Source: a virus. Taken from it: a DNA stretch of 64,000 nt. The stretch lies in the UHGV virus genome UHGV-0084588; one strand, 5' to 3'. Below are positions 1-54,921 of the stretch, in pieces. Each line of letters begins with the position of its first letter. The stretch's first letter is position 1. A program made the position numbers and the translations under genes. The notes under the pieces were generated by a model that searched no databases, was not told where the DNA came from, and was given only the letters and a program-made list of their open reading frames with translations.

Positions 1-32
1 GCGGCTATTCTAATGATTAGGAGAATATAGAG

Positions 33-428
33 ATGACCGCAATATTAGGTATAATGTCAAGAAAAGCTGATGCCATTACGACATTTATTGACCAATATAA
101 CAACTCACCGTATACACGTCTTAGATTGCGTAAACCCCAGAATAGTACAGAATGGGTTCGCTGGTTTAATATTTGGGATAAAACAATAAGTAAAATCAAT
201 CCGTTATTCAGAATTAGGGTTGAGCCTGCTTATTGGATTGTAATGGAAATATCGCTATTACGTATTATCGAAAAACGTCCTATAGACGTAAAGACGATGT
301 TTGGGGTAGATACGTATAAAATGTTGAACAATGGTTTTGTGGGTAATGGGGAACACACGTTGTATCAAGCGATGCTGGAAATGTGTTTGTTCGATTTAGT
401 TACTTACGAATTGGGGATTTCAAAATGA
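33..428 (+). CDS. hypothetical protein
   Basis: 131-aa ORF; AGGAGA Shine-Dalgarno about 7 nt upstream of ATG; stop overlaps next start (ATGA). Confidence 0.6.
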   Translation: MTAILGIMSRKADAITTFIDQYNNSPYTRLRLRKPQNSTEWVRWFNIWDKTISKINPLFRIRVEPAYWIVMEISLLRIIEKRPIDVKTMFGVDTYKMLNNGFVGNGEHTLYQAMLEMCLFDLVTYELGISK

Positions 429-889
429 ATTGCTTCGAATCTAAAGAAATTGTTGAGTTGTTTAAGCAGCGTGAGAAAACCGCTTTCCGTGACCTGTACG
501 ATTCTGATTATCGTCCACTGTTTGCGGTATTAATGCGACTGGATAAAGAACCCGAAGTCGCGTTAGCAGAGGTACAGCACCACCACGTCAGTTTCGTATT
601 AACCGAAAACATGAGCCGGTGGGTAGATGCTATGCTGATCCGTATTGGGCTCTTGGAAACACCACACCGTTGGGAAGTGGTTATTCAGAAATCATTATTC
701 CCACGGGAAGACATTTTCAACAACTATCGTCCGAAACAGTATTACAACCACGACGGGTCGCCGAAACGTGCTTTTCTGGCACCGCAACACTTCGTAACCT
801 ACGTAACGTTGCGTTACAAAGACACCGTGGTGCCGTTTGACACCTACCTGGAAATGCGTGAGATAATTTTAGGGAAGAATCCGTCATGA
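425..889 (+). CDS. hypothetical protein
   Basis: Start moved from 383 to the in-frame ATG at 425, which overlaps the upstream stop (ATGA); translationally coupled chain of small genes. Confidence 0.55.
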   Translation: MNCFESKEIVELFKQREKTAFRDLYDSDYRPLFAVLMRLDKEPEVALAEVQHHHVSFVLTENMSRWVDAMLIRIGLLETPHRWEVVIQKSLFPREDIFNNYRPKQYYNHDGSPKRAFLAPQHFVTYVTLRYKDTVVPFDTYLEMREIILGKNPS

Positions 890-1368
890 TTCAATTTTCC
901 GTTGATGCAGAAAGATTGGCGTCATTTAAAGAGCGTGCTCAGCTTGCAATCAAAAACGGCTATATTGAAAAAGGAGTTCGTGACACCTGTAAGCTAATCA
1001 ACGACCATCCACATTTGGCGACAATGTGGAGTTGTGAAGGCCACGGTATGTATTCTAAGTCACCTGGAAATCTGCATATCGTTTTTGCAACAGACGCTAT
1101 TGGAAGTCAGATTCCAATGCAGATTATGTCTATACTTGCAAAATCGGATTTACCGAATTTCTGGAATCTTAGTTTGTGTCGTCTTTATATACCAGATGCG
1201 TACACGGATTTGGTATATCTTGAACCTGACTACGGATTAAATACCGACGACACTTCTTACTGGTCTTGGAAAATCGGATACATGTGCTTGATTAATCGCC
1301 CTGCGTTAGTTGAGACACGTCAAGCTCTTTATAAAGCATTTCACACAGTATTAGTTGAGAATAAATAA
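886..1368 (+). CDS. hypothetical protein
   Basis: 160-aa ORF; ATGA overlap with upstream gene; TAATG overlap with downstream gene. Confidence 0.6.
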   Translation: MIQFSVDAERLASFKERAQLAIKNGYIEKGVRDTCKLINDHPHLATMWSCEGHGMYSKSPGNLHIVFATDAIGSQIPMQIMSILAKSDLPNFWNLSLCRLYIPDAYTDLVYLEPDYGLNTDDTSYWSWKIGYMCLINRPALVETRQALYKAFHTVLVENK

Positions 1369-2060
1369 TGGCTACCAAACAAAAGAAACCTCGTAACAAA
1401 AAGTATAACCCGAAAGCAGCTGCTAACCGTACCGCGCACACCATCGCTGAAAATGCGTTAAACCGCATTACTTTCGTCGGTAGCTCTATTCGTCCTATCG
1501 GTCCGTACGCAGGTCGTGGTTTCCAGTTTACAACGTCACCGCGTATGCGCATGGCAGCGACTGATATGTTAATCGGTGGTCTGTTTGACGAACCGCGTAA
1601 CTGGAAACTTTGGGTTGCGCATCTCTACGAAACAGATAATGGTGTACAGGCAGAAACCATCGTTGCAACGCTTGACGACTACACGTTAAGTGATTTCTGT
1701 CAGCACGGTGACAAAATCATTAAATCGCTACGTGAGACAGAAGAAAACTACTTCGGTTACGCTTTCGTTGCTGCACCTAACGAACGTTATGATTTTGACC
1801 AGGGAGAAGAACGCTTACTGGAAAACTTCATGCATTCTGGACTGTTAGACAAATCCCTACACTTACCTGAAGAAGAACTGATGGTTACGCGTAAGGATAT
1901 GGTAACGTTGCTGTTAGCCGATCGTGGTCGTTTTGATGTTACCGAATCCCATGTACGTAAAGTACAGAAGCTCGTGGATAAGGTCGACGAAACTGACCTG
2001 GACACTAGTGAAGTCGCAACGCGTATCCAATCGGTAGTCAATCAGGAAGAGGATTACTAA
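1368..2060 (+). CDS. hypothetical protein with basic N-terminus
   Basis: 230-aa ORF; Lys/Arg-rich N-terminus (MATKQKKPRNKKYNPK); start overlaps upstream stop (TAATG). Confidence 0.6.
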   Translation: MATKQKKPRNKKYNPKAAANRTAHTIAENALNRITFVGSSIRPIGPYAGRGFQFTTSPRMRMAATDMLIGGLFDEPRNWKLWVAHLYETDNGVQAETIVATLDDYTLSDFCQHGDKIIKSLRETEENYFGYAFVAAPNERYDFDQGEERLLENFMHSGLLDKSLHLPEEELMVTRKDMVTLLLADRGRFDVTESHVRKVQKLVDKVDETDLDTSEVATRIQSVVNQEEDY

Positions 2061-2062
2061 AC

Positions 2063-2593
2063 GTGATAGCGCGACTTGCGAGTCGGTTTAAGCAACGTCG
2101 GGCAAAGGCGGTCGAATGGCCGCCTATTACGCATGACGAGAAAGTAGTTTCTTTTTTGGAATATAACAAAGACCTGAAAAGATTAGGTGAGTTAATGCAC
2201 TTAACGGAACGTCAGGTTTTTGCTAAGATTTCAAGTAGTGTTTTACGTAAACAGGTAATTCCACACCTATCCTTTTCAGGGCAGGTTTTTGCAATAGCGA
2301 CAGAGGAATTTTTATCGATAGCGGGGAATGAAACCCCACGTATACGGTACTCAGTTACAGGTTCATCAGATGCGGTTGGTACAGTTGATTTCGGACGGTT
2401 GTATCAGAGCATTAAAAGTACGGGCCATATACATGTTAAACGGGTATCAGAAACTTCTGTAGTGATTTATCACCGTACTGAGAATGATTTGTTCGGGCGT
2501 GTTATAAGGCTAACAAACTTACGCAGTTTTTACGTTGATTTGCTTACAGAGTTTTATCCAGAACCATGGTGCTTTATAGATGAAAATAAATGA
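2063..2593 (+). CDS. hypothetical protein
   Basis: 176-aa ORF with GTG start 2 nt after upstream stop; no strong RBS, so the start is uncertain. Confidence 0.45.
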   Translation: MIARLASRFKQRRAKAVEWPPITHDEKVVSFLEYNKDLKRLGELMHLTERQVFAKISSSVLRKQVIPHLSFSGQVFAIATEEFLSIAGNETPRIRYSVTGSSDAVGTVDFGRLYQSIKSTGHIHVKRVSETSVVIYHRTENDLFGRVIRLTNLRSFYVDLLTEFYPEPWCFIDENK

Positions 2594-2792
2594 CGGATAT
2601 ATCATCACGGCAATTGTTTCAACTGCGCTGATTGTAACAATGTTGATGTTCTACGTTAAGACTTCCGACGAATCACGTAAAGAATCTCTTTATCGTGAAT
2701 GTATGGCAGGTACTACGGTAGATAATCCACGCTACGCTGAATTGGTAATGGCGTGTACGGATTACGCTAAACGAATGGGAGGTGGAGGATGA
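2580..2792 (+). CDS. small membrane protein
   Basis: 70-aa ORF with one hydrophobic helix (YIITAIVSTALIVTMLMFYV); conserved Cys pair shared with the next gene. Confidence 0.5.
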   Translation: MKINDGYIITAIVSTALIVTMLMFYVKTSDESRKESLYRECMAGTTVDNPRYAELVMACTDYAKRMGGGG

Positions 2793-2986
2793 AAATTTGG
2801 TTACCGATTCTAGTTTTTATCCTTATCGCAGGAGCACTAGCAAGTGCTGAGTACGATAATCGTGTTCTAGAAACAAAGCGCGAACTGTATCAGGACTGTA
2901 TAAAGGATTACACACCGGGTACAGAGCTTCATGCACAGGCTGTAAAAAGTTGTGCACTGATGGCCGAATCGCAGACTCGTTCCTAA
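2789..2986 (+). CDS. small membrane/secreted protein
   Basis: 65-aa ORF; N-terminal hydrophobic segment (IWLPILVFILIAGALASA); similar layout to 2580..2792, likely a paralog. Confidence 0.5.
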   Translation: MKIWLPILVFILIAGALASAEYDNRVLETKRELYQDCIKDYTPGTELHAQAVKSCALMAESQTRS

Positions 2987-3360
2987 TGCGAATCTGGACG
3001 CTACAACTCGCTAAGTGGCGATTAGCTAAGCAGAAAGGATTTCGCGCAGTGGATATCACTGTGAAGTCAGGGCGAAAGGAACTCGCCCCAGACTGGGATT
3101 TCCTAATGGCGTATAAAAACTCTGCCCAAGACGCCGCCGCTGAGCGTGAATACACGATAAAGTATTTGTACAAACTCGAACGACTGTTAGATACCGATGC
3201 CGAAACGTTGGTCTCGTTGCTTAGACACGAAGATTTGGTTTTGATGTGCTATTGTCCCGCAGGTAAGTTTTGTCATCGTCACCTACTGGCGAACAAACTT
3301 CAAGAAGTGGGAATGACGTTCGGTATCGATGTTGAGTTATGTGGAGAACTAACGGTCTGA
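2986..3360 (+). CDS. hypothetical protein with Cys/His cluster
   Basis: Start set to the ATG at 2986 overlapping the upstream stop (TAATG); C-terminal CYCPAGKFCHRH motif suggests metal binding; followed by a strong terminator. Confidence 0.5.
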   Translation: MRIWTLQLAKWRLAKQKGFRAVDITVKSGRKELAPDWDFLMAYKNSAQDAAAEREYTIKYLYKLERLLDTDAETLVSLLRHEDLVLMCYCPAGKFCHRHLLANKLQEVGMTFGIDVELCGELTV

Positions 3361-3383
3361 TTTGATATTTAGCTGCAAAATGA

Positions 3384-3431
3384 CCGCCTACCGCCCGATT
3401 CTATGGGCGGTAGGTGTTTTTATTTTTTTTT
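3384..3431 (+). terminator. rho-independent terminator
   Basis: GC-rich inverted repeat CCGCCTACCGCCC...GGGCGGTAGGTG followed by a T-tract of about 14 nt. Confidence 0.75.
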
Positions 3432-3447
3432 GATCTGGGAGGTTTTA

Positions 3448-4008
3448 GTGACTGCTTACGTACCTGATTTAAGTTTGTCCTCAGCCGAACTAGTGGTCGC
3501 TTTAATCAACCACGATAACGGTTCACGGTTGTCTCTAAGCGAAATCCGTATTAGCAACACTACGGCAAACCCATCCCCGACCACTTCGCGTCGTAACACA
3601 CTGACAGAGATTACAAAAATCAGGAAACCTGATGGTGCTTCTGTAGTTGTTTATTACGACCGTTTGGATGCGGACGAAGTGTTAGCGTCTGAACCTATTT
3701 TGATTTCGTTAGATGGTACTGAAGACAACCTTCGTGACATTTTAGGTGTTGTAAATGAATTCTGCGGAACGAACTTACAACCCGAGGATTTACGTGCTTC
3801 AGATATCACCTTAGGTAAAGAACCCATTGCTGTCAACGTTGCTGACGATTCCCCTGCGTGGATGAATGCGTTTATGGTGACGTTATTTGATACAACCGAA
3901 CGGGCATTGGCAAACGAAGAAGATGCAATCTTCTGTATTGATGATGAGGCCGTTCTTACCTTTGAGGTTCCAGATGACGGTACGGCTGAAGAAAATCCGG
4001 CTATATGA
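3448..4008 (+). CDS. fibre-associated paralog-family protein (family A, copy 1)
   Basis: GTG start with GGGAGG RBS 5 nt upstream (the ATG at 3403 lies inside the terminator hairpin); paralogous to 10163..10678 (VPDLSL, LINHDNG, CG.NLQP.DL motifs) and more distantly to 18506, 19368, 22511 and 23107. Confidence 0.6.
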   Translation: MTAYVPDLSLSSAELVVALINHDNGSRLSLSEIRISNTTANPSPTTSRRNTLTEITKIRKPDGASVVVYYDRLDADEVLASEPILISLDGTEDNLRDILGVVNEFCGTNLQPEDLRASDITLGKEPIAVNVADDSPAWMNAFMVTLFDTTERALANEEDAIFCIDDEAVLTFEVPDDGTAEENPAI

Positions 4009-4078: not shown

Positions 4079-4157
4079 GAACGCGGAATTGGACATCACT
4101 TTCACGTTAGAAGTTGATGGATTAAAACCAGTATAATAATCCGCTTATAAAAATGTT

Positions 4158-4190
4158 GGGGAGGTGCTTTACCTCCCCAGATCTTTTAGC
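4158..4190 (+). promoter_or_regulatory. stem-loop upstream of the tail-fibre start
   Basis: Perfect 8-bp inverted repeat GGGGAGGT-gcttt-ACCTCCCC followed by a short T-rich stretch, after a TATAAAAA box; terminator or 5' UTR structure. Confidence 0.4.
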
Positions 4191-4212
4191 TCCAGATAGA
4201 GAATTAAATATC

Positions 4213-7200
4213 ATGGCTAAAGCGGTAAAGAAAATACGTTTACACGATTTGCGTCCATACACCGGGGATATCGGTGAAGGCGTTTTACTTTTTTCGAAAG
4301 ACGAAAAAGATTATAAGTTACCCGTCCGCGAAATCGTTGCGGATATTGACACCGTCAGAAACGCGGTTGCTGATGCACAAACAGCTGCAGCCAAATCGCA
4401 GCAGTCTGCAACAGAAGCTACGCAAGCAAAAAATTTAGCGGAAACCGCGAAGCAACAAACTGACACGTTAGCTTCCACAGTCAGTGAGCAAGCGGGAACC
4501 GTTGCCACTAAAACTGCTGAAGTTAACAAAAAACACGCTGAAGTTTTAGCAGCGAAAACTGCCGTAGATACTGTTTCACAATCAGTAAATGAGAAGGCTC
4601 AAGCTGTCGCCACATCCGAACAATCTGTGACGGCTACGGCGGCTGATGTAACTAAGAAAGCAGAAACGGTTACGCAACAGGCCGGACAAGTTCAACAGAC
4701 GGCTACCAGCGTTGAAAATACCGCAGCTTCAGTCGAGGCCAGTAAAGGTGCAGTGGAGAAAATCGCTGCACAGGTCGCGAAAGATAAAGAAAGCTCAGAA
4801 GGGGCAGCTACGCGTTCGGAGTCAGCTGCCCTACGTGCGGAGAAAATCGCTGCCCAAGGATTAGTTGACGCTACTACAACCGGTAAAGGTATTGTTAAAC
4901 TTAACGATACCCTGACAAGCGATTCCGTGACTGAGGCTGCTACACCGTCCACGGTTAAACAGCTGAACGACGATTTACAGTTAAAAGCCAATAAACATTC
5001 GCCGAATTTTACGGGTAACCCGACATCCCCAAAACCGCCGAAGGACTCGAATGACACGAGTATCTCCACAACGTCCTGGGTGCGTGACGCGATTGCGGAA
5101 TTGGTTGGTTCTTCACCCGAGACGCTAAATACCTTAGCGGAATTAGCTGAGGCGTTAGGTAATGACCCTAACTTCGCAACAACGATCACTGAGGAACTTG
5201 CGCAGAAACAACCTCTCAGCCCGTTACTCACCGCTATTGCCGCAGTCACCACAGCGGCAAACAAACTCATGTATTTCACCGGCAGTAATAAAGTCGGATT
5301 AACAGATTTTACAGAAACGGCCAGATCCTTGTTAGCGAAAGGGTCAACTGCGGATATCATTAACTTCCTGGGTTTGAAACCCACCGTTGATAAAGCAAAC
5401 GGCGCATTACAGAAAAACTCTAACGGTGCTGATATCCCAAATAAAGAAACTTTTGCTCGCAACATCGGCCTATCTCCTGATACCTATCTGCGTTTCCGTG
5501 GCGAAATGCCTGTAGATGCTGATATTAACACATTTGCTCCAGATGCTAATTACACAGGAACATGGTCCAAGTCGACATCAACCAATGCGTCGATGGCAAA
5601 ACACTTCCCAGAAGACGGTGCAGTCGGTTATCTGGAAGTGTATAAAGCGGGCAACTACAGTGGAGCGCAACGTTTTACCTGCCGTAATGGTAACGTGTAC
5701 AACCGTATGTTGTCAGGTGCGTGGAACGGAACTAATGGCCCGTGGTCACCGTGGAGAATGGTAACTACCGGTGTACGTCCGTTATCTACATCGATCGATC
5801 TGAACTCCTTAGGCGGCGCTGAGCACATGGGTAACTGGCGTAACTCGTCCAGTTCGTTAGCGGTGTTCGACAGACATTATCCTGAAGAGGGCGGTAATGC
5901 GCAAGGCGTATTAGAAGTCATGGAAGGCGGTCTTTATGGACGGTTGCAACGATACACCACACGACATGGTACGATGTATGTCCGTGGTTTGACTGCGACT
6001 TGGGATTCTTCTAATCCGCAGTGGGAAGATTGGATTCAGGTTGGGTATCAGGTAGACGGTGCCTACTATAAGGGTAGCTTTAACGACTTAACTAAACCGG
6101 GCCGCTTTAGTGTTACCGGTGAGGCTACAGACAGTCCGTTAACAGACTCTGCTGGCGCAACCTTGCTAGGTGTTTGCGAAGTTACCTTACGCTTAGACGG
6201 TTCAGGCGTTGAACAAAATTATACCACATACGGTACAGGCGCAACTTCGAAAGGTCGCAAGTTCCAACGAATTCGTACAGGAAACGCCTGGAGCGAATGG
6301 CGAGAGATTTTCACATCCTATTCACTCCCGTTGACTTTAGGGATCGGTGGGGTTGCTGCTAAGGTCGATCCGTTAGACTGGCAAACATTCGACTTCGTTC
6401 CTGGCCAGATGATAAGTACACCGTTGAATACCATGAAAAATATTCCTGCGGGAATGGATTGGGGTGTTATCGACGGTAACTTGGTCACTATTCTTGTAGG
6501 GGCGTCGGAGGACACCGGTACTGGCCGGAGTATGTTGGTCTGGCGTGGTACAGTGTCTACTGCTAACTATCGCTTCTTTGCTGTTCGCGTCGCTGGTGAA
6601 AAGGGTAAACGTACTATTACTAGCCGCCAGATGCCCGTATTGAATGCAGCGCATACGTGGGCAGAAAAACAGACCTTTGCAAAAGGGTTATCGGGCGAAT
6701 TGACAGGTAATGCGTCAACGGCAACAAAACTGAAAACAGCCCGTTTAATCGGCGGTGTAAGTTTCGACGGTAGCGGCGACATTAGCCTCCCTGGTGTGAA
6801 CCAACAGGGTAATCAAAACACCTCTGGGAACGCGGGAACCGCAACCAAATTACAAACGGCTCGAAACATCAACGGTGTGAAATTTGATGGGTCTAGAGAC
6901 ATCAATATCAACACGTTGGTAGGACGTGGACGTGTTACTGCACTGTCTGGTTCAAACAAAGGTACACCCGGTATTCAGATGTACGAAGTTTACAATAACG
7001 GTTATCCAACCGCTTATGGTAACTTACTGCATTTGGGTGGCGCTACTGCGCTAGGTGAAGGCGAGCTGTTAATCGGATGGCCGGGGACGAGCGGTGCGCA
7101 CGCGCCTGTTTATATTCGTAGTCGACGTGATACGGCTGATGCACCGTGGTCAGATTGGGCACAAGTTTACACTGCCCGTGACAGCATTCCTGGCGTAAAT

Positions 7201-8655
7201 GCCACCGGTAATCAAGATACTACCGGCAACGCCGCTACCGCGACGAAACTGAAAACCGCTCGCAGGATCGGAGGCGTTACCTTTGACGGTACAGGTGATA
7301 TCAATTTACCGGGCGTTAACCAGCAAGGCAACCAGAATACGACAGGTAATGCAGCGACCGCTACTAAGTTACAAACCGCACGTAAGATCGGCGGTGTGCT
7401 TTTCGATGGGACAAAAGACGTTAATCTTCCTGGCGTAAACCAAACCGGTAACCAATCGACTACGGGGAATGCGGCGACAGCGACTAAGCTCCAGACTGCG
7501 CGAAATATAGGTGGTGTAGCTTTTGATGGTACTAAAGACATCAGTTTACCTGGAGTAAACCAAACAGGTAATCAGGCGACTACCGGAAACGCAGCCACGG
7601 CAACAAAGTTGCAAACCGCAAGAACCATTAACGGTATCGCATTTGACGGCACTAGAAATATATCGTTAGGACCTGCCGATATAGGTTGTCCGGCATCGCC
7701 TAGTGGTTGGTTAGAAACTGGCAAAGATGGCGGCGCAATAACTACAGCACAGCTAGTGACGTTATTGAAAAATAACGGCGCATTTACCACAAGATCGTGG
7801 GTTGCTCGCTGTGCATGGGCTTATGCCGCTAGTGCGTCCATACCACACAGCGAGACGGGTTGTGGTGTTATTCCGTTAGCTGGGGCCGTTATAGAAGTGA
7901 TTAGTAACGGTAATAGCACAAACAACTACACGATCCGTATAACGACTGCCACAACGGCGAGCGTCGGTGGCGCACTCACTAATGCGGAGTTTATCTACGT
8001 ATTTAACGGCGATACATACTCACCAGGCTGGCGTCGTGCTTACAATACGAGAAACAAGCCAACTGCTGCAGAAGTGGGTGCACTACCTTCGGGGGGCGGT
8101 ACTATAGGCGGCGATTTAACCGTTAACGGTAAATTGGCCACTAAATACCCTGATTTTCGAATCGCTTACGGTACCTACGGTTTTATTTTACGTAACGACG
8201 GTGCCAATACCTATTTCTTAGTAACCGACGCCGGACAAGCCGCAACGGGTTCCTGGAACGGATTACGCCCGTTGTCTTTTAATAATTCTAACGGCCAAGT
8301 AAACTTTGGACATAACGTTACTGGCAACGGTAACGGTTCGTTTAACGACGTACAGATTCGTTCTGACCGTCGTAACAAACGTAATCTGGTGAAGCTGGAT
8401 AAAGCTTTGGATCGGTTAGAGTTACTAACCGGTTATTTGTACGAAATTCAGCATCCGGATGACGGCTGGCAGACTTCTGTAGGTCTAATTGCTCAGGACG
8501 CATTAGAAGCGTTACCTGAACTTGTGTCTGAGGATGATGATGCCATTTCAGGCGAAAAACGTTTACGTCTAAACTACAATGGCGTTATTGCGCTGTTAGT
8601 AGAGGGTATGAAAGCGTTGCGTCAAGAGGTTAACGAAATTAAAGGAAGATCCTAA
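4213..8655 (+). CDS. long tail fibre protein with C-terminal intramolecular chaperone (S74-like)
   Basis: 1480 aa from the ATG at 4213. N-terminal Ala/Gln/Thr-rich segment; four copies of a W-containing ~70-aa knob-like domain; six 40-aa repeats (GNQNTTGNAATATKLQTAR.IGGV.FDGT.D..LPGVNQ) of the phage tail-fibre repeat type; C-terminal ~97 aa (SDRRNKRNLVKLDKALDRLELLTGYLYE...) resembles the self-cleaving chaperone of T5 pb1 / K1F endosialidase. Confidence 0.85.
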   Translation: MAKAVKKIRLHDLRPYTGDIGEGVLLFSKDEKDYKLPVREIVADIDTVRNAVADAQTAAAKSQQSATEATQAKNLAETAKQQTDTLASTVSEQAGTVATKTAEVNKKHAEVLAAKTAVDTVSQSVNEKAQAVATSEQSVTATAADVTKKAETVTQQAGQVQQTATSVENTAASVEASKGAVEKIAAQVAKDKESSEGAATRSESAALRAEKIAAQGLVDATTTGKGIVKLNDTLTSDSVTEAATPSTVKQLNDDLQLKANKHSPNFTGNPTSPKPPKDSNDTSISTTSWVRDAIAELVGSSPETLNTLAELAEALGNDPNFATTITEELAQKQPLSPLLTAIAAVTTAANKLMYFTGSNKVGLTDFTETARSLLAKGSTADIINFLGLKPTVDKANGALQKNSNGADIPNKETFARNIGLSPDTYLRFRGEMPVDADINTFAPDANYTGTWSKSTSTNASMAKHFPEDGAVGYLEVYKAGNYSGAQRFTCRNGNVYNRMLSGAWNGTNGPWSPWRMVTTGVRPLSTSIDLNSLGGAEHMGNWRNSSSSLAVFDRHYPEEGGNAQGVLEVMEGGLYGRLQRYTTRHGTMYVRGLTATWDSSNPQWEDWIQVGYQVDGAYYKGSFNDLTKPGRFSVTGEATDSPLTDSAGATLLGVCEVTLRLDGSGVEQNYTTYGTGATSKGRKFQRIRTGNAWSEWREIFTSYSLPLTLGIGGVAAKVDPLDWQTFDFVPGQMISTPLNTMKNIPAGMDWGVIDGNLVTILVGASEDTGTGRSMLVWRGTVSTANYRFFAVRVAGEKGKRTITSRQMPVLNAAHTWAEKQTFAKGLSGELTGNASTATKLKTARLIGGVSFDGSGDISLPGVNQQGNQNTSGNAGTATKLQTARNINGVKFDGSRDININTLVGRGRVTALSGSNKGTPGIQMYEVYNNGYPTAYGNLLHLGGATALGEGELLIGWPGTSGAHAPVYIRSRRDTADAPWSDWAQVYTARDSIPGVNATGNQDTTGNAATATKLKTARRIGGVTFDGTGDINLPGVNQQGNQNTTGNAATATKLQTARKIGGVLFDGTKDVNLPGVNQTGNQSTTGNAATATKLQTARNIGGVAFDGTKDISLPGVNQTGNQATTGNAATATKLQTARTINGIAFDGTRNISLGPADIGCPASPSGWLETGKDGGAITTAQLVTLLKNNGAFTTRSWVARCAWAYAASASIPHSETGCGVIPLAGAVIEVISNGNSTNNYTIRITTATTASVGGALTNAEFIYVFNGDTYSPGWRRAYNTRNKPTAAEVGALPSGGGTIGGDLTVNGKLATKYPDFRIAYGTYGFILRNDGANTYFLVTDAGQAATGSWNGLRPLSFNNSNGQVNFGHNVTGNGNGSFNDVQIRSDRRNKRNLVKLDKALDRLELLTGYLYEIQHPDDGWQTSVGLIAQDALEALPELVSEDDDAISGEKRLRLNYNGVIALLVEGMKALRQEVNEIKGRS
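6689..6909 (+). repeat. tandem 120-nt coding repeats (block 1, about 2 units)
   Basis: Repeated nucleotide units encoding ...TGNASTATKLKTAR.IGGV.FDGS.DI.LPGVNQ...; the minus-strand ORF 6567..6782 is a shadow of these. Confidence 0.7.
7189..7669 (+). repeat. tandem 120-nt coding repeats (block 2, 4 units)
   Basis: Units begin at about 7189, 7309, 7429 and 7549 (CCTGGCGTAAAC / CCGGGCGTTAAC ... GGTAA.CA...AC.AC.GG.AA.GC.GC.AC.GC.AC.AA); the minus-strand ORF 7212..7541 is a shadow. Confidence 0.8.
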
Positions 8656-9437
8656 TGGCAGTTGTCGGCGTAGGTGGTTGGATTGGTTCTTCAGCAAAAG
8701 CTGAAGCTGGTAACGAATGGATGTCTGGCGCGATGCGCACACTTGGTGTGCCGGTTCCAGGCTGGATGTCGCAATTGGCGGGAAAATCAAAAGAGGTCCA
8801 TTATTCTATTGGTGCTAACCATAGCTATAATAAGGATACTCTTATTAACTATTTACGTTCTTTAGGCTCTACTGCTGTCGTTGTGACTATTACGGGGGAT
8901 TTAGTGTCCCATAGTAGCACGGTTCCTTGTTTAGAATTCCCTAGCAATCTTCCAAATTCGTATATTACCCTCATCATCAATCCTGGGGTTACAGTATACG
9001 GCAGAGGAGGCAACGGCGGTTCTAACTCACCAGGCGGTGCAGGTGGAACCGCAATACAGAACGGAATAGGAAACAGACTGCGTATAACCAACCGTGGCGC
9101 TATTGCCGGAGGCGGTGGCGGCGGTGGCGGCGGTAACAGGGGTAGACTAACATTTGGTGGTGGCGGTGGTCGCCCATTCGGTGCTGGTGGGTCTTCCTCT
9201 CATATGAGTTCCGGTGCGGCTGCTGGTACTATTTCCGCTCCTGGTAGAGGATCTGTTGGTGAGGGGTCTCTTAGTGCATATACAGGCGGTTCGGGTGGTA
9301 ATGTCGGTGCTGCTGGAGGAAGATGTAATACTCATGGTAACGGTACAGAATATAACGGCGGAGCAGCTGGTAAAGCTGTTACTGGTAATGCGCCAAGATG
9401 GGACGCAGTAGGTGCAATATATGGTTCACGTGTTTAA
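8655..9437 (+). CDS. gp38-like tail-fibre adhesin with glycine-rich motifs
   Basis: N-terminus MAVVGVGGWIGSSAKAEAGNEWMS and the YGRGGNGGSNSPGGAGG / GGGGGGGGG / GGGGGRPFGAGGS segments match, from memory, the T2/T6-type gp38 adhesin; start overlaps the fibre stop (TAATG). Confidence 0.75.
   Translation: MAVVGVGGWIGSSAKAEAGNEWMSGAMRTLGVPVPGWMSQLAGKSKEVHYSIGANHSYNKDTLINYLRSLGSTAVVVTITGDLVSHSSTVPCLEFPSNLPNSYITLIINPGVTVYGRGGNGGSNSPGGAGGTAIQNGIGNRLRITNRGAIAGGGGGGGGGNRGRLTFGGGGGRPFGAGGSSSHMSSGAAAGTISAPGRGSVGEGSLSAYTGGSGGNVGAAGGRCNTHGNGTEYNGGAAGKAVTGNAPRWDAVGAIYGSRV
9108..9170 (+). repeat. GGC/GGT codon run encoding poly-glycine
   Basis: ggaggcggtggcggcggtggcggcggt... low-complexity triplet repeat inside the gp38-like gene. 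Confidence 0.6.
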
Positions 9438-9497
9438 TTTGAAAAAGTATGGGGGTACTCACTCCCCTCCTCGCATCTTTCAAAAGGTGGGGGTAAA

Positions 9498-10010
9498 ATG
9501 GCGGTAGCATCAGGATGGGTCGGATCTTCAGCTAAGAATGAAACTGGCGAACAATGGATGAGCGCTGCGGGTAGTAAATTAGGATTGGGTAGACCATTTA
9601 TGATGAGTCAAATGGTGGGCCGATCTACGGGTTGTAAAATTGCGACCGCTTACTACAAAGGGAATCCTCCTGATAAAGTTGAAAACTGGGGGGCCGTAGG
9701 TTCAGATTGGCCATTGGCTGAAAAGAACAAAGGCACAATTACTGGTGCTTCGAGCTGTGGTTTAGGTCGTTTAGTGGGGATCGTACTTACGCAAGCTCAC
9801 TACATTTCTGGTGTTCCACCCACTGCGGCTTTATACATCGCAGGAGGAAGGGCAAGTAATATTACAGTAACAGTTGGTGGGGTCTCACAAGTTTTCACCT
9901 ATAATAGTGTTATTAACGGTTTTCACTATTACTGGCAAGGAACACCTAGTTCGGCCTTTATAGCAGCAATGAAGAGAACGGGTGTTACACAAGATTTGAA
10001 AATTAGTTAA
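9498..10010 (+). CDS. gp38-like adhesin paralog (no glycine-rich region)
   Basis: N-terminus MAVASGWVGSSAKNETGEQWMSAAG parallels 8655..9437, with a different C-terminal domain; GGGGGTAAAATG RBS. Confidence 0.6.
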   Translation: MAVASGWVGSSAKNETGEQWMSAAGSKLGLGRPFMMSQMVGRSTGCKIATAYYKGNPPDKVENWGAVGSDWPLAEKNKGTITGASSCGLGRLVGIVLTQAHYISGVPPTAALYIAGGRASNITVTVGGVSQVFTYNSVINGFHYYWQGTPSSAFIAAMKRTGVTQDLKIS

Positions 10011-10162
10011 CTAATTGGGGTAAAACGACAACTAATGCTAGTAAAATAAGAGTTAGTGAATTCGTAATTCAATAATTTTTTATAGAAAGGCTGATTTATT
10101 AGAATCGGAGGGGGTAAGATGTTGCTAGAAACATTTCACCCCCTACCATAGGGAGTAAGCTT

Positions 10163-10678
10163 ATGGGGCAATTCGTGCCGGATTTGTCGTTAACTTCACT
10201 TAACATGGTTATTTCACTGGTTAACCATGACCTCCAGCTCGACTTGCAAGAGAACGAGGTTGAAGTCAGCGACGTAAAGACCAGTAACGAAATGGATCGT
10301 GACACCACTGCTGTTGTAAAGATAAAACGTCCGGACAACAGAACGTTGCAGATATATTACAACCGTTTAACCGCAGAGCGGTGGTTAAACCAGCAACCTA
10401 TCCTAGTAAAGGTTTCCGGTAATGGCTTTACCGCACACGATCTAATCGACGGAATTAACGCGGCTTGTGGTTGTAATTTACAACCCGACGATCTTACCGA
10501 CGAATCATTTACCGTAGGGAAAGACGCTGTAACGTTACAGGTTTCACCCAACTCGTTAGGTTATAAAGGCCAATTCTCCGTTCTGGTTTTCGGTAACGAT
10601 GAAGAAGCTGCTGTAGTAAAAGACAACGATTTAATCGTTACCGCAGATAACCGTGTCTTAACATTCGGAGGCCGCTAA
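10163..10678 (+). CDS. fibre-associated paralog-family protein (family A, copy 2)
   Basis: Paralog of 3448..4008; AGGGAG RBS; stop overlaps the next start (TAATG). Confidence 0.6.
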   Translation: MGQFVPDLSLTSLNMVISLVNHDLQLDLQENEVEVSDVKTSNEMDRDTTAVVKIKRPDNRTLQIYYNRLTAERWLNQQPILVKVSGNGFTAHDLIDGINAACGCNLQPDDLTDESFTVGKDAVTLQVSPNSLGYKGQFSVLVFGNDEEAAVVKDNDLIVTADNRVLTFGGR

Positions 10679-11298
10679 TGGCTGAACTGGTAGGAAAGGT
10701 GCGCATTCATGAACTGGAGACACTTTCAGAAGACATCACGGGTGTAGTAGTCTTAGCGTCTAAGGAACAAACTGAATACCAACTCCCGATTGAGAAATTA
10801 GGGGGTACCGAGGTTACAGTGAGTCCGTCAGCGAATAACATCCTTAAGTCTAACAACGATGGGTTGTTTGTTGACGGCACTCATCCGATTATACCAAAAA
10901 TGGATGCAAAAACCTTATCGGGAAATATGGTGGTAGAAAAAACGTTGACAGGTGGTGCGGTAATCTGCAAAACAACAGTTGACGTTAATAATAGACTGGG
11001 GGTTTCGCAATTATCTGGAGTGTCAATTTATAGCCAGTGTCTGTTGGAAAATAAATTGGTTTATCTGGGAGAAGACGGCAGTATTATTGATGCGTACTTC
11101 TACATTAGTAATACAAAGACCACAGCCAGTACAATAACCCACACCATTCGTGTTGTTTTAGCGAAGATACCCTCTAAAGTTATCGATATCACCGATTTGT
11201 CTGAAACCGAAGTACAATACGAGAATAGTAATTTACCTGTTAAGATCGTTATTAAACATCTTGCAGGGACAACACTTTCCCAGAACGGAATGAAATAA
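10678..11298 (+). CDS. short fibre-like protein sharing the N-terminal anchor of the long tail fibre
   Basis: N-terminus MAELVGKVRIHELETLSEDITGVVVLASKEQTEYQLP aligns with the first ~40 aa of 4213..8655; followed by a strong terminator. Confidence 0.6.
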   Translation: MAELVGKVRIHELETLSEDITGVVVLASKEQTEYQLPIEKLGGTEVTVSPSANNILKSNNDGLFVDGTHPIIPKMDAKTLSGNMVVEKTLTGGAVICKTTVDVNNRLGVSQLSGVSIYSQCLLENKLVYLGEDGSIIDAYFYISNTKTTASTITHTIRVVLAKIPSKVIDITDLSETEVQYENSNLPVKIVIKHLAGTTLSQNGMK

Positions 11299-11303
11299 AT
11301 TTT

Positions 11304-11350
11304 AGGTAGTAGGGGCTTAAGCCCCTACTACCTTTTCTTTTTTTTATTTT
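11304..11350 (+). terminator. rho-independent terminator
   Basis: AGGTAGTAGGGGC-ttaa-GCCCCTACTACCT hairpin followed by a T-run. Confidence 0.8.
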
Positions 11351-24372: not shown

Positions 24373-24914
24373 TCTTCTTCTCCAACCATACCTAATTCTT
24401 GCAGCAAGCCAAAATCAATCAACTGGAAGGTTTCAGAGAGATCGTTTGACCACACCACGTTTGCAATGTCGCGTTCTTCATCGGATAATTGCGGTAACAC
24501 ATTTTCGTTGAACGTCTGATGCTCTACGTAATAAGCATCGTAGATAGACGTAGAACGCAAGCAACGGATTGGCAGTCTTGGGAAAGACACCGCTAATGCA
24601 GCAATAGATGCGCTGCTCGGATTCTCCGCAGAATAGCGAAGCAATTCGATTTTGTGGCGCGGATAGTCCAGTACGCGTTGCTCGAAACCCGGATTACGTT
24701 TTTCGATTTCAACAACGGACTCATGACCTGTTTCTGTACAGTAAACGGGAATCATCACGTTTAGCCCGTACTTAATTAACAGAGGTTTAATCTCATCTGT
24801 AAAGTCTTCGCCAGGGATAATGGCGTGAACGTTATAGAGTTTATGTTTGCGCAGAAAACGCTCAACCAGATGGAGTTTACGCTTCGTAAAATTGTGGATC
24901 AGAATTGATTTCAT
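24348..24914 (-). CDS. hypothetical protein
   Basis: Start taken at the internal ATG at 24914 (GAGG about 9 nt upstream); overlaps the 3' end of the radical SAM gene. Confidence 0.45.
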   Translation of the reverse strand: MKSILIHNFTKRKLHLVERFLRKHKLYNVHAIIPGEDFTDEIKPLLIKYGLNVMIPVYCTETGHESVVEIEKRNPGFEQRVLDYPRHKIELLRYSAENPSSASIAALAVSFPRLPIRCLRSTSIYDAYYVEHQTFNENVLPQLSDEERDIANVVWSNDLSETFQLIDFGLLQELGMVGEEECLLLTKA

Positions 24915-26211
24915 TATTTGCCTCAGTAGGTTGTGCATTTAAAGCACGTTTAGCTTGCTCACGCTCACGCGTACATTTCGGACAGTAACAAACAGACGAA
25001 TCGTGCAGTGACGATGCGTGGACGGTACCCGTACGTTGACGCCAGTATTCTGCTGCCATCAGTTTTGCGGTCGTCCAGCCACATTGACGACGTTCAGCGT
25101 GGTACGCCTTACGGTCTTCCAGTGTCCCTTCACCGTTTTCGTAGGAAGCAGCTGCACAGCTGCCACAACCGTGTTTCATCGGACAGCCTAAGCACGTTTC
25201 AGGGTAGTTAGTATATTGCGTCTGAATCTCTTCCAGCAGCTTCCCGTCATCTAAACTAACGAACTCGCGACCAACTAATTCAAACACCGCAGAACGTGAC
25301 GTTACCGTTGACATAAAACGGTTACAACCGTATACCTTGCGGTCAAAACCTAAACAGGTCATGAACGTTAACGTACCACAGAACGGACGTAGGCGATCTG
25401 GGTTATAACGATGCGTGTCGTCATACAGCAGCTTATCGCGCCAATCTGGGTCCCAAATCTGACGGAAATCCAGACCTTCGGGAATGATATGTGACAACAC
25501 GTTACGTGGATTGGTGTGCAACCCTTTCTCAATCCAATAATCCATCACGTCGATCATCTGCAACGCAATATCCGTTGCCATGCTCCGTGGAAGAATATCT
25601 TCGTACGTAACGTTACCTGAAATCGTACCGCCACCGGCAACATCGATTAGCGATTTCATACTCGCTGCATAATGCGGTAACGTTTCGGTCGTAAAGGTTG
25701 CCTTGATACCCAGTTCAGCAATACCGACTTCTTTTAAGTAGTTATAGCCACGAACAGCGGCTTCGTAAGAACCTTGACGCGTCGTGGTAAAGATACGATA
25801 GCGGTCATGGACTTCTGGTAAACCGTCGATAGAAACACCGATGGAGAGTTTGTCTTTCCAACGCTCAACAATCTCACGGTTTAACGGGCGATCTAACAAC
25901 GTACCGTTAGTTGAGATACTGAACATATACGGGCGATTGTGCTCCTTACACAACTGTTCTGCGGTTTCGAACGCCGCTAACAGCAGTTTCGGTTGCATAA
26001 AAGGCTCACCGCCGATGATATCAATAATGACGTCGATGTTCGGAATATCTTTATCGCGCTCAAAACACGCGTGTAAGAAATCCACGATATCCGCCGCTTT
26101 GTTATTACGCGGATACTTACGTTCGTAACAATACTCACAGTCTAAGTTACAAGACAGATTCGTTACCACCTGGTAAGTACGTTGAGAACGTGGTGCTTCA
26201 TTATTGCTCAT
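24877..26211 (-). CDS. radical SAM enzyme with C-terminal SPASM-like Cys cluster
   Basis: CNLDCEYC (CxxxCxxC) at residues 21-28, GGEPF SAM-binding motif, and C-terminal CLGCPMKHGCGSC plus additional Cys, as in SPASM maturases. Confidence 0.75.
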   Translation of the reverse strand: MSNNEAPRSQRTYQVVTNLSCNLDCEYCYERKYPRNNKAADIVDFLHACFERDKDIPNIDVIIDIIGGEPFMQPKLLLAAFETAEQLCKEHNRPYMFSISTNGTLLDRPLNREIVERWKDKLSIGVSIDGLPEVHDRYRIFTTTRQGSYEAAVRGYNYLKEVGIAELGIKATFTTETLPHYAASMKSLIDVAGGGTISGNVTYEDILPRSMATDIALQMIDVMDYWIEKGLHTNPRNVLSHIIPEGLDFRQIWDPDWRDKLLYDDTHRYNPDRLRPFCGTLTFMTCLGFDRKVYGCNRFMSTVTSRSAVFELVGREFVSLDDGKLLEEIQTQYTNYPETCLGCPMKHGCGSCAAASYENGEGTLEDRKAYHAERRQCGWTTAKLMAAEYWRQRTGTVHASSLHDSSVCYCPKCTREREQAKRALNAQPTEANNEINSDPQFYEA

Positions 26212-35601: not shown

Positions 35602-35619
35602 CGTAAAGACTCCTACTTT

Positions 35620-35658
35620 TAAATAAAATGGATACCCCTCCCCATTACAGGGAGGGGT
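35620..35658 (-). terminator. hairpin between tailspike genes
   Basis: ACCCCTCC-ccattacag-GGAGGGGT, followed on the minus strand by a U-rich stretch and the RBS of the next gene. Confidence 0.5.
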
Positions 35659-35695
35659 TACCTACGGACACACAACTGCCCGCAGGCAGTCTGTC

Positions 35696-39880: not shown

Positions 39881-39890
39881 AAAATTCTCC

Positions 39891-54890: not shown

Positions 54891-54921
54891 TACACCACAC
54901 TCCGTCTTTATGGAGGTGGGT

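What the first reader, a model, noticed from the sequence alone, without database searches (positions are those of the whole stretch)
8362..8652. Predicted autoproteolytic intramolecular chaperone at the C-terminus of the long fibre, next to gp38-like adhesins
The last ~97 residues (from Ser in IRSDRRNK, codon at 8362..8364) look like the S74 C-terminal chaperone that trims itself off after trimerisation in T5 pb1 and endosialidases. Such self-chaperoning fibres are usually independent of gp38-type tip proteins, so finding both together is an unusual combination.
Basis: partly seen in the sequence, partly recalled or inferred. Interest (0 to 1): 0.5.

Follow-up and report, generated by a model that had tools for sequence, protein, structure and literature searches.

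The report
Self-cleaving fibre chaperone that exposes adhesin dock
The last 97 residues of this giant phage's long tail fibre are a self-cleaving folding chaperone, and its position next to gp38-type adhesins is the normal T2/S16 arrangement rather than an odd combination.

Summary
Window 8362..8652 encodes a Peptidase_S74 intramolecular chaperone (IMC). The catalytic Lys lies five residues later (S-D-R-R-N-K). The closest solved relative by sequence is the phage S16 gp37 tip (PDB 6F45, E 1.6e-13). The predicted fold matches the MyRF and endosialidase chaperone domains.

The claim that the combination is unusual is wrong. In T2 and S16 the gp37 IMC cuts itself off, and this exposes the surface on which gp38 docks. 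I sampled 15 loci where a gp38-type gene sits next to a fibre gene. They cover seven Straboviridae genera, Stx phages, phage-plasmids and this jumbo-phage lineage. In all 15 the upstream fibre ends in an IMC.

The mildly new points are these:
- The host is a jumbo phage that groups with SPN3US and phiEaH2.
- Two adhesins lie in tandem (8655..9437 and 9498..10010). They share the docking domain but carry different receptor-binding parts.
- This tandem layout is conserved in five relatives, and four could be tested and are under purifying selection.

Verdict: a new member of a known kind, of low to moderate interest.

The parts
4213..8655 (+). Long tail-fibre gene. The probable start is ATG 4213 (1480 aa, 156.3 kDa precursor). 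The mechanical ORF starts at 4153 (1500 aa).
   Evidence: ORF list and translation. Many PHROG tail-fibre families match. A hairpin at 4156-4180 lies upstream of ATG 4213.
4156..4180 (+). Terminator-like GC hairpin followed by a T-run. It separates the upstream DUF7941 gene from the fibre gene and argues for the 4213 start.
   Evidence: Consensus scan and sequence.
4873..4992 (+). Phage_fiber_2 repeat (PF03406), aa 241-280 in ORF numbering.
   Evidence: Pfam E 1.7e-9.
7978..8277 (+). Gp34_trimer-like domain (PF21446), aa 1276-1375. It is the last folded shaft domain before the cleavage junction.
   Evidence: Pfam E 1.3e-19. phmmer matches T4 gp34 (4uxe, 5nxf) and Mu tail fibre protein S (5yvq) at about 1e-15.
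8359..8364 (+). Predicted scissile bond Arg^Ser (R1403^S1404 in ORF numbering, R1383^S1384 from ATG 4213).
   Evidence: The Ser aligns to Pfam profile position 1 and to the S16 site DLNVS^SDRRIKK (site from PMC7917993). The junction DV(Q/Y)IR^SDxRxK recurs across the sampled loci, with more divergent versions in Merlin and PS49.
8362..8652 (+). Intramolecular chaperone of the Peptidase_S74 family, 97 aa and 10.96 kDa, predicted to be released after trimerisation.
   Evidence: Against two relatives dN = 0 with dS = 0.11.
8377..8379 (+). Lys (K1409 or K1389), five residues after the Ser. It is the predicted general base of the Ser-Lys dyad.
   Evidence: S45, D46 and K50 of the 141-aa fragment are at least 90% conserved in 20- and 24-sequence alignments. 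The spacing matches T5 pb1 Ser1264/Lys1269 (PMC4690869).
8655..9437 (+). gp38A, a full T2/S16-type adhesin of 260 aa. Gp38_N docking domain aa 1-42, glycine-rich GP38 domain aa 47-260. Its ATG overlaps the fibre stop codon (TAATG).
   Evidence: Pfam PF05268 E 2.2e-70 and PF21721 E 5.2e-14. S16 gp38 (6f45_D) E 2.7e-50 over the full length. The overlap is visible in the sequence.
9498..10010 (+). gp38B, a second and shorter adhesin of 170 aa. It has the same Gp38_N docking domain (aa 1-40) but a different, non-glycine-rich C-terminal domain.
   Evidence: Pfam PF21721 E 8e-21 only; phrog_1121 'tail fiber adhesin' E 3.3e-54. The N-terminal domain is 55% identical to gp38A. It aligns to the S16 gp38 N-terminus. 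It is 92.9% aa identical to the adhesin of phage-plasmid CMS-2020a.
3403..4008 (+). Upstream flanking virion protein (DUF7941).
   Evidence: Pfam E 1e-18; PHROG 'virion structural protein'.
10163..10678 (+). Downstream flanking virion protein (DUF7941).
   Evidence: Pfam E 6e-17. It holds the same position in relatives L005 and L008.
11304..11333 (+). First strong terminator-like hairpin downstream of the fibre and adhesin genes. It is the probable end of the transcription unit.
   Evidence: Consensus scan: 13-bp stem followed by a T-run.

Best explanation
The C-terminal 97 residues of the long fibre are an S74-family intramolecular chaperone. Three precursor chains are proposed to fold from the C-terminus, nucleated by the IMC. 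Once the trimer is correct, Ser (codon 8362-8364), activated by the Lys five residues later, cuts the Arg-Ser bond in each chain. An 11-kDa peptide then leaves. The new C-terminus (...GNGSFNDVQIR) and the surface it uncovers form the dock for the N-terminal domain of a gp38-type adhesin, encoded immediately downstream and translationally coupled. The adhesin, not the fibre, binds the host receptor. This is the T2/S16 pathway, here carried on a single-polypeptide fibre of a jumbo phage that groups with SPN3US and phiEaH2. Shown here: domain identity, conserved dyad, predicted fold, gene order and co-occurrence. Inferred: cleavage, docking and receptor binding.
For: Pfam S74 is above the cut-off and starts at the named Ser. 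S16 gp37, whose IMC is experimentally autocleaved to expose the gp38 dock, is the closest solved relative by sequence, with the cleavage motifs aligned. Ser, Asp and Lys are at least 90% conserved in homologues. The Ser/Lys +5 spacing matches T5 pb1. In the AlphaFold model the block means from residue 51 onward are pLDDT 82-93. Its best Foldseek PDB matches are the MyRF ICA domain (7dc3, E 5e-5, TM 0.54) and the endosialidase intramolecular chaperone (3gw6). gp38A equals S16 gp38 over its full length (E 2.7e-50), and both gp38A and gp38B carry the Gp38_N domain. In 15 of 15 sampled loci the fibre next to a Gp38_N gene ends in an IMC. The layout is conserved in relatives L005, L008, L009 and L022. 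The IMC shows dN = 0 with dS = 0.11, and the adhesins show dN/dS of 0.08-0.34 against relatives.
Against: No experimental data exist for this phage, so cleavage and docking are inferred from homology. The structure model is a monomer of a domain that works as an intertwined trimer, and overall pLDDT is only 72. The residues just upstream of the junction (a Gp34_trimer-like domain) differ from the S16 tip, so the geometry of the docking surface is not shown. The upstream Arg/Asp folding-sensor residues described for T5 and K1F were not located.
Confidence: 0.85

Rival explanations
1. One reading: the fibre is self-sufficient, with the IMC folding a tip that binds the receptor itself. The gp38-like genes are an independent, unusual add-on that serves some other fibre or acts redundantly.
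For: T5 pb1 and endosialidases use an IMC without any gp38. A block of about 390 nt upstream of the distal domains (7661-8053) is replaced between the window and its closest relative, so the shaft may carry a binding domain of its own.
Against: The literature states that IMC release exposes the gp38 dock in S16 and T2. In 15 of 15 sampled loci a Gp38_N gene follows an IMC fibre. The fibre stop codon overlaps the gp38A start codon. No other IMC-bearing fibre is found in the 64-kb window.
Confidence: 0.04
2. The IMC is retained only as a folding and trimerisation module and no longer cleaves. The adhesins dock elsewhere or not at all.
For: Cleavage is not demonstrated here. Only the first ~57 residues match the short Pfam model.
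Against: Ser, Asp and Lys of the SDxRxK motif are intact and at least 90% conserved. There is no non-synonymous change in the 97 codons against two relatives with dS 0.11. The whole 97-aa tail aligns to the S16 IMC.
Confidence: 0.06
3. The gp38-like proteins are T4-type assembly chaperones that are not part of the virion, acting together with the IMC.
For: Some database records label homologues 'distal long tail fiber assembly catalyst'.
Against: T4 gp38 is unrelated to T2-type gp38 (PMC13030884). gp38A matches the S16 adhesin structure and the GP38 adhesin Pfam family over its full length. Those labels are legacy annotation.
Confidence: 0.03

Closest known systems
Salmonella phage S16 gp37-gp38 long tail fibre tip (PDB 6F45)
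   Same: The C-terminal IMC has the motif x^SDRRxK and is homologous over the whole 97-113 aa tail (E 1.6e-13). The adhesin gene follows directly. gp38A is homologous to S16 gp38 over its full length, including the N-terminal Trp-containing docking domain and the glycine-rich domain. The mechanism described for S16 is autocleavage that exposes the gp38 dock.
   Different: S16 is a T4-like Straboviridae phage with a four-protein fibre (gp34-37). Here one 1480-aa polypeptide sits in a jumbo phage. The residues preceding the cut differ (GNGSFNDVQIR against GGAIYCRDLNVS). The IMC is 97 aa rather than 113 aa. There are two adhesin genes instead of one.
T2-type Tequatrovirus gp37/gp38 (for example Yersinia phage fPS-65)
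   Same: gp37 carries Peptidase_S74 at 882-940 of 994 aa and is followed by a 260-aa gp38 with GP38 and Gp38_N. The junction GNGSFSDVYIR^SDSRLK is nearly the same as in the window.
   Different: The virus family and fibre architecture differ, and there is a single adhesin.
Fibre plus short adhesin of SSU5-like phage-plasmid CMS-2020a and Stx phages P8983 and phi315
   Same: CMS-2020a and P8983 carry the same junction NGNGSFNDVQIR^SDKRNKRNLVKLD. Their IMCs are of the same subtype (96 aa). They are followed by a 170-aa Gp38_N adhesin that is 92.9% (CMS-2020a) or 68% (P8983) identical to gp38B. For phi315 only the C-terminal IMC match and a 25% N-terminal adhesin match are shown.
   Different: These are temperate phages with other tail types and only one adhesin. 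A sister CMS-2020a record carries the gp38A type instead.
T5 pb1 L-shaped fibre and K1F endosialidase intramolecular chaperones (Peptidase_S74)
   Same: Same Pfam family, same Ser/Lys +5 dyad, same C-terminal position and same release after trimerisation. The fold search finds 3gw6.
   Different: In those proteins the mature C-terminus is itself the receptor-binding or enzymatic domain, and no separate adhesin docks. Their IMCs are longer (about 134 aa in T5).
MyRF ICA domain (PDB 7dc3)
   Same: It is the best structural match of the model (E 5e-5, TM 0.54) and is an autoprocessing trimerisation domain of the same fold.
   Different: It belongs to a eukaryotic membrane-bound transcription factor and has no connection with fibres or adhesins.

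Membership tests
Peptidase_S74 / intramolecular chaperone of tail fibres and spikes | Profile match above the curated threshold | tested here: met
   PF13884 scores 39.9 bits (44.8 on the fragment) against a cut-off of 22, covering profile positions 1-57 of 58.
Peptidase_S74 / intramolecular chaperone of tail fibres and spikes | Nucleophilic Ser at the start of the domain with a Lys five residues downstream | tested here: met
   The motif is S-D-R-R-N-K at 8362-8379. Ser and Lys are at least 90% conserved in the alignments. The spacing equals T5 Ser1264/Lys1269.
Peptidase_S74 / intramolecular chaperone of tail fibres and spikes | Position at the extreme C-terminus of a trimeric fibre or spike | tested here: met
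   The domain ends at the stop codon of a 1480-aa fibre that carries fibre repeats and a Gp34_trimer domain.
Peptidase_S74 / intramolecular chaperone of tail fibres and spikes | Mixed alpha/beta fold ending in a long helix (trimeric coiled coil) | tested here: met
   The AF2 model has beta-hairpins and a terminal helix at 116-140, with block-mean pLDDT 82-93 from residue 51 onward. Foldseek top hits are the 7dc3 MyRF ICA domain and the 3gw6 intramolecular chaperone. The model is a monomer only.
Peptidase_S74 / intramolecular chaperone of tail fibres and spikes | Upstream Arg/Asp folding sensor from a neighbouring chain | not tested
   This is described for T5 and K1F. The equivalent residues were not located here, and a trimer model would be needed.
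Peptidase_S74 / intramolecular chaperone of tail fibres and spikes | Autoproteolytic release after trimerisation | not testable with these tools
   This needs protein expression or virion mass spectrometry.
T2/S16-type adhesin-capped long tail fibre | Adhesin with an N-terminal Gp38_N attachment domain encoded directly after an IMC-bearing fibre | tested here: met
   PF21721 is present in both gp38A (E 5e-14) and gp38B (E 8e-21). gp38A overlaps the fibre stop codon. The same pairing holds in 15 of 15 sampled loci.
T2/S16-type adhesin-capped long tail fibre | Glycine-rich motif / hypervariable loop receptor-binding domain (PF05268) | tested here: met
   gp38A matches at E 2.2e-70 over the full profile, and matches 6f45_D at E 2.7e-50. 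gp38B does not meet this feature, having the Gp38_N domain only.
T2/S16-type adhesin-capped long tail fibre | Conserved Trp 'prongs' in the adhesin N-terminus | tested here: met
   gp38A has W9, W22 and W37, which align with the three Trp of S16 gp38 (GPW, QNW, PFW). gp38B keeps the first two and has Met at the third position. The role of the Trp residues is taken from PMC7917993.
T2/S16-type adhesin-capped long tail fibre | Segmented gp34-gp35-gp36-gp37 fibre of a Straboviridae phage | tested here: not met
   Here there is a single 1480-aa fibre. The neighbours are DUF7941 virion proteins with no gp35 or gp36 matches. The window's few kb of DNA similarity is to SPN3US, phiEaH2 and related jumbo phages, and it encodes giant paralogous virion proteins. 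It therefore works like a T2-type tip but is not a T-even fibre.
T2/S16-type adhesin-capped long tail fibre | One gp38 monomer bound to the cleaved trimeric tip | not testable with these tools
   PDB 6F45 has three gp37 chains and one gp38 chain. For this phage, multimer modelling or experiment is needed.

The most novel reading that the evidence does not exclude
In this jumbo-phage lineage one fibre species, once its IMC is released, may be capped by either of two adhesins. They share the docking domain but have unrelated receptor-binding domains: glycine-rich gp38A and short gp38B. A single virion would then carry a mixed set of tips and could use two receptors. Expression of the second adhesin might also be switched by a short poly-G tract just after its start codon. 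That tract is 4, 5 or 8 G in relatives, with the 4-G form out of frame, and it is interrupted in the window.
Probability: 0.3. Interest if true: 0.55.

Novelty: new member of a known kind. Interest (0 to 1): 0.25.

Why it matters
The finding corrects a misconception. The self-cleaving chaperone and the gp38 adhesin are two halves of one assembly pathway, so seeing an IMC at the end of a fibre that lacks a binding domain predicts a separately encoded adhesin nearby. It also shows that this tip module moves as a unit (junction, IMC and adhesin) between very different phages. Carriers found here include T-even phages, Stx phages, phage-plasmids and now a giant phage that groups with SPN3US. This is useful for predicting receptors and for engineering host range. 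The conserved pair of adhesins is a testable candidate for dual-receptor use.

Tried and rejected
- **RB49 locus:** its gp38 is about 80% identical in DNA to gp38A, but it was uninformative for gene order. In Krischvirus gp38 lies far from gp37, as one search confirms.
- **Goslar:** its fibre is followed by a Caudo_TAP assembly protein, which suggested a neat tip-module swap at an orthologous site. The flanking proteins and the fibre N-terminus show no BLASTP similarity to the window, so I do not claim orthology.
- **tblastn of the fibre's N-terminal 260 aa against phage genomes:** only two marginal hits, so the baseplate-proximal part has no relative in that collection.
- **DNA pattern scan of genome contigs for the gp38B start:** only chance matches in unrelated MAGs. 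The metagenome scan added two true relatives, L024 and L026.
- **First structure job:** It was rerun with permitted rows.
- **Regex-based junction listing:** it picked a wrong late motif for phi315. For that phage I rely on the HMM alignment.
- **Poly-G phase variation:** support is weak. One of seven genomes is out of frame at the tract, and another has a frameshift further downstream. Assembly error is not excluded.
- **Literature searches for gp38 adhesins in SPN3US-like phages or tandem gp38 adhesins:** nothing relevant was found in the held library.
Full report
**What is at the coordinates**

The + strand carries a long ORF, 4153..8655, of 1500 aa. A GC-rich hairpin followed by a T-run lies at 4156-4180, after the upstream gene and before an in-frame ATG at 4213. 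The real protein probably starts at 4213 and has 1480 aa.

The codon at 8362-8364 is TCT, a Ser (Ser1404 in ORF numbering, Ser1384 from ATG 4213). It sits in the sequence ...GNGSFNDVQIR-SDRRNKRNLVKLD.... From that Ser to the stop codon there are 97 residues, 10.96 kDa. Removing them would take the protein from 156.3 to 145.4 kDa.

**Is it an S74 intramolecular chaperone?**

- **Profile.** Pfam PF13884 (Peptidase_S74, 'chaperone of endosialidase') matches residues 1404-1458 to profile positions 1-57 of 58. E is 5.1e-10 and 39.9 bits on the whole protein, and 1.6e-11 and 44.8 bits on the last 117 residues, against a curated cut-off of 22 bits.
- **PHROG families.** Tail-fibre families match the same tail with E down to 3e-36.
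- **Solved structures, by sequence.** For the last 141 residues the best hit is chain A of 6F45, the distal tip of Salmonella phage S16 gp37 (E 1.6e-13). It aligns over the whole tail, with DVQIR-SDRRNKRN placed against DLNVS-SDRRIKKD.
- **Conservation.** In alignments of 20 and 24 homologues, the Ser, the following Asp and the Lys five residues later are at least 90% conserved.
- **Catalytic spacing.** The Ser/Lys +5 spacing is that of T5 pb1. There, Ser1264 is the scissile residue, Lys1269 activates it, and Ser-to-Ala blocks cleavage (PMC4690869).
- **Predicted fold.** An AlphaFold model of the last 141 residues has block-mean pLDDT 82-93 from residue 51 onward. It shows beta-hairpins followed by a long terminal helix.
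- **Fold search.** The best Foldseek matches in the PDB are the MyRF ICA domain (7dc3, E 5e-5, TM 0.54) and the endosialidase intramolecular chaperone (3gw6).
- **Selection.** Against two close relatives the 97 codons show no non-synonymous change while dS is 0.11.

The observation and the domain assignment are therefore confirmed. Cleavage itself is inferred.

**The neighbours**

The fibre stop codon overlaps the start of the next gene (TAATG at 8653-8657). That gene, gp38A (8655..9437, 260 aa), matches the GP38 adhesin family over the whole profile (E 2.2e-70). It also matches the Gp38_N attachment domain and S16 gp38 (6f45_D) at E 2.7e-50. Its three N-terminal Trp residues align with the three Trp of S16 gp38.

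A second gene, gp38B (9498..10010, 170 aa), has the Gp38_N domain (E 8e-21) but a different C-terminal part. It belongs to phrog_1121, 'tail fiber adhesin'. Its N-terminal domain is 55% identical to that of gp38A and aligns with the S16 gp38 N-terminus.

The module is flanked by two DUF7941 virion proteins. The first strong terminator-like hairpin downstream lies at 11304-11333. tblastn finds only one IMC in the 64-kb window.

**Is the combination unusual? No.**

The literature is explicit.
- In S16, after gp37 trimerises, the last 113 residues (the IMC) are autocleaved between the two serines of DLNVS^SDRRIKK. [quoted passage not shown] In T2-like Yersinia phages the equivalent site is DVYIR^SDGRLKI (PMC7917993).
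- T2 gp37 is cleaved at its C-terminus and capped by gp38 (PMC13030884).
- A 2026 preprint states the same rule for T2, T6 and S16.

I tested this directly in two ways.
- fPS-65 gp37 has Peptidase_S74 at 882-940 of 994 residues and is followed by a 260-aa gp38.
- I collected loci chosen only because they contain a gp38-like gene, then scanned them with an HMM built from the IMC alignment. In all 15 loci where a Gp38_N gene lies next to a fibre gene, the upstream fibre ends in an IMC at its very C-terminus.

The 15 loci cover Tequatrovirus, Dhakavirus, Moonvirus, Karamvirus, Slopekvirus, Pseudotevenvirus, two Sepvirinae Stx phages, two SSU5-like phage-plasmids, and the window with three relatives. 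RB49 is the known exception, where gp38 has moved away from gp37. The junction DV(Q/Y)IR^SDxRxK recurs across these phages, with more divergent versions in Merlin and PS49.

Wherever gp38-type adhesins occur next to a fibre gene, the IMC is their regular partner.

**Most likely mechanism**

- The IMC nucleates trimer folding from the C-terminus.
- The Ser-Lys dyad cuts the Arg-Ser bond once the trimer is correct.
- The 11-kDa peptide leaves.
- The exposed tip binds the Gp38_N domain of an adhesin, and the adhesin recognises the host receptor.

Domain identities, conserved catalytic residues, gene order and co-occurrence are shown here. Cleavage, docking and receptor binding are inferred from S16, T2 and T5. 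I put this at 0.85.

**Context and what is mildly new**

The window belongs to a jumbo phage.
- It has 72-75% DNA identity over a few kb to SPN3US, phiEaH2 and other jumbo phages of about 240 kb.
- It encodes three giant paralogous virion proteins that match the PHROG families phrog_7449, phrog_8078 and phrog_7557 over their full lengths.
- It has a ~90% identical relative on a 221-kb contig in a Shigella flexneri assembly.

The listed rows of the gp38A-type tblastn search of the phage collection are all 160-180-kb T-even phages, apart from one 9-kb partial record. I found no paper describing this module in such jumbo phages in the held library.

The fibre is a single polypeptide with P1 gpS-like repeats and a Gp34_trimer-like domain rather than a gp34-37 assembly. 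It therefore works like a T2-type tip without being a T-even fibre.

The module is mosaic. gp38A is about 80% identical in DNA to Krischvirus gp38. gp38B is 90.8% identical in DNA to a phage-plasmid gene.

The order fibre, gp38A, gp38B recurs in relatives L005, L008, L009 and L022. L024 also carries an intact gp38B start. Both adhesins are under purifying selection against relatives, with dN/dS 0.17-0.34 and 0.08-0.23. None of the eleven other sampled loci has two Gp38_N genes.

Phage-plasmid relatives carry either the gp38A type or the gp38B type after the same kind of fibre. PDB 6F45 holds three gp37 chains and one gp38 chain. A plausible but untested reading follows: the two adhesins compete for the same tip and give mixed virions.

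**Verdict**

The feature is real and correctly identified, but it is the canonical partner of gp38 adhesins, not an odd combination. It is a new member of a known kind, in an unreported host lineage, with a conserved second adhesin as the one point worth following up.

Noticed in passing
window 9498..10010 (with 8655..9437): Two gp38-type adhesin genes lie in tandem behind one IMC fibre. They share the Gp38_N docking domain (55% identical) but have unrelated C-terminal parts. The order is conserved in relatives L005, L008, L009 and L022, and L024 has an intact gp38B start. It is absent from the 11 other sampled gp38 loci. Both genes show dN/dS well below 1.
   Followed up: partly
window 9498..9510; L005 11271..11280; L008 19235..19250; L009 19580..19592; L022 1404..1416; L024 about 7070; L026: A G-run directly after the ATG of the second adhesin varies among relatives. 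It is 4 G in L005 (out of frame, stop at codon 3), 5 G in L009, L022, L024 and L026, and 8 G in L008 (in frame, one extra Gly). In the window it is interrupted by a C. It could be a slipped-strand on/off switch or an assembly error. L026 also has a frameshift further downstream.
   Followed up: partly
window 7661..8053: This block of the fibre gene, just upstream of the Gp34_trimer-like domain, does not align with the otherwise ~90% identical relative L005. It appears to be a replaced cassette, possibly a lateral binding or knob domain within the shaft.
   Followed up: no
L009 14099..18724 compared with window 8362..8652: Relative L009 keeps a gp38A that is 93% identical, but its fibre ends in a different IMC subtype (38% aa identity, junction GTWVCGGNGNFNDVYIR^SDARLK). 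That subtype matches the CMS-2020a record carrying a gp38A-type adhesin. The window's junction subtype (NGNGSFNDVQIR^SDxRNKRNLVKLD) is the one that single-adhesin phages pair with gp38B-type adhesins.
   Followed up: partly
L008 11016..14021 and L009 11187..14021: Two relatives carry an extra ORF of about 1000 aa, with no Pfam match, plus a 170-aa ORF between the upstream DUF7941 gene and the long fibre. The window and L005 lack them.
   Followed up: no
window 30415..44213 (- strand): Three consecutive giant paralogous virion structural proteins of 1728, 1394 and 1440 aa. They cross-match phrog_7449, phrog_8078 and phrog_7557. A 435-aa protein from the same family group lies just before them.
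   Followed up: partly
window 10678..11298 and L022 1995..4549: The 206-aa ORF after the downstream DUF7941 gene matches only the C-terminal 158 residues of an 842-aa PHROG family (phrog_33169). In relative L022 a 644-aa ORF precedes a 206-aa ORF at this position. This suggests a further variable virion or fibre protein that is shortened in the window.
   Followed up: no
L019 (RB43) 1..951 and 932..3451: RB43 has two consecutive fibre proteins that each end in an IMC, followed by a single short Gp38_N adhesin.
   Followed up: no
window 24877..26211 (-) and 54910..57426 (+): A radical SAM protein (phrog_1802) and an SbcC-like nuclease subunit (phrog_77) are encoded elsewhere in the window.
   Followed up: no
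L005 10001..10471: In the public Shigella flexneri assembly, only the last 156 codons of the fibre were called as a gene ('tail fiber domain-containing protein'). An uninterrupted 1533-aa ORF (5870..10471) is present, so the fibre is under-annotated there.
   Followed up: partly
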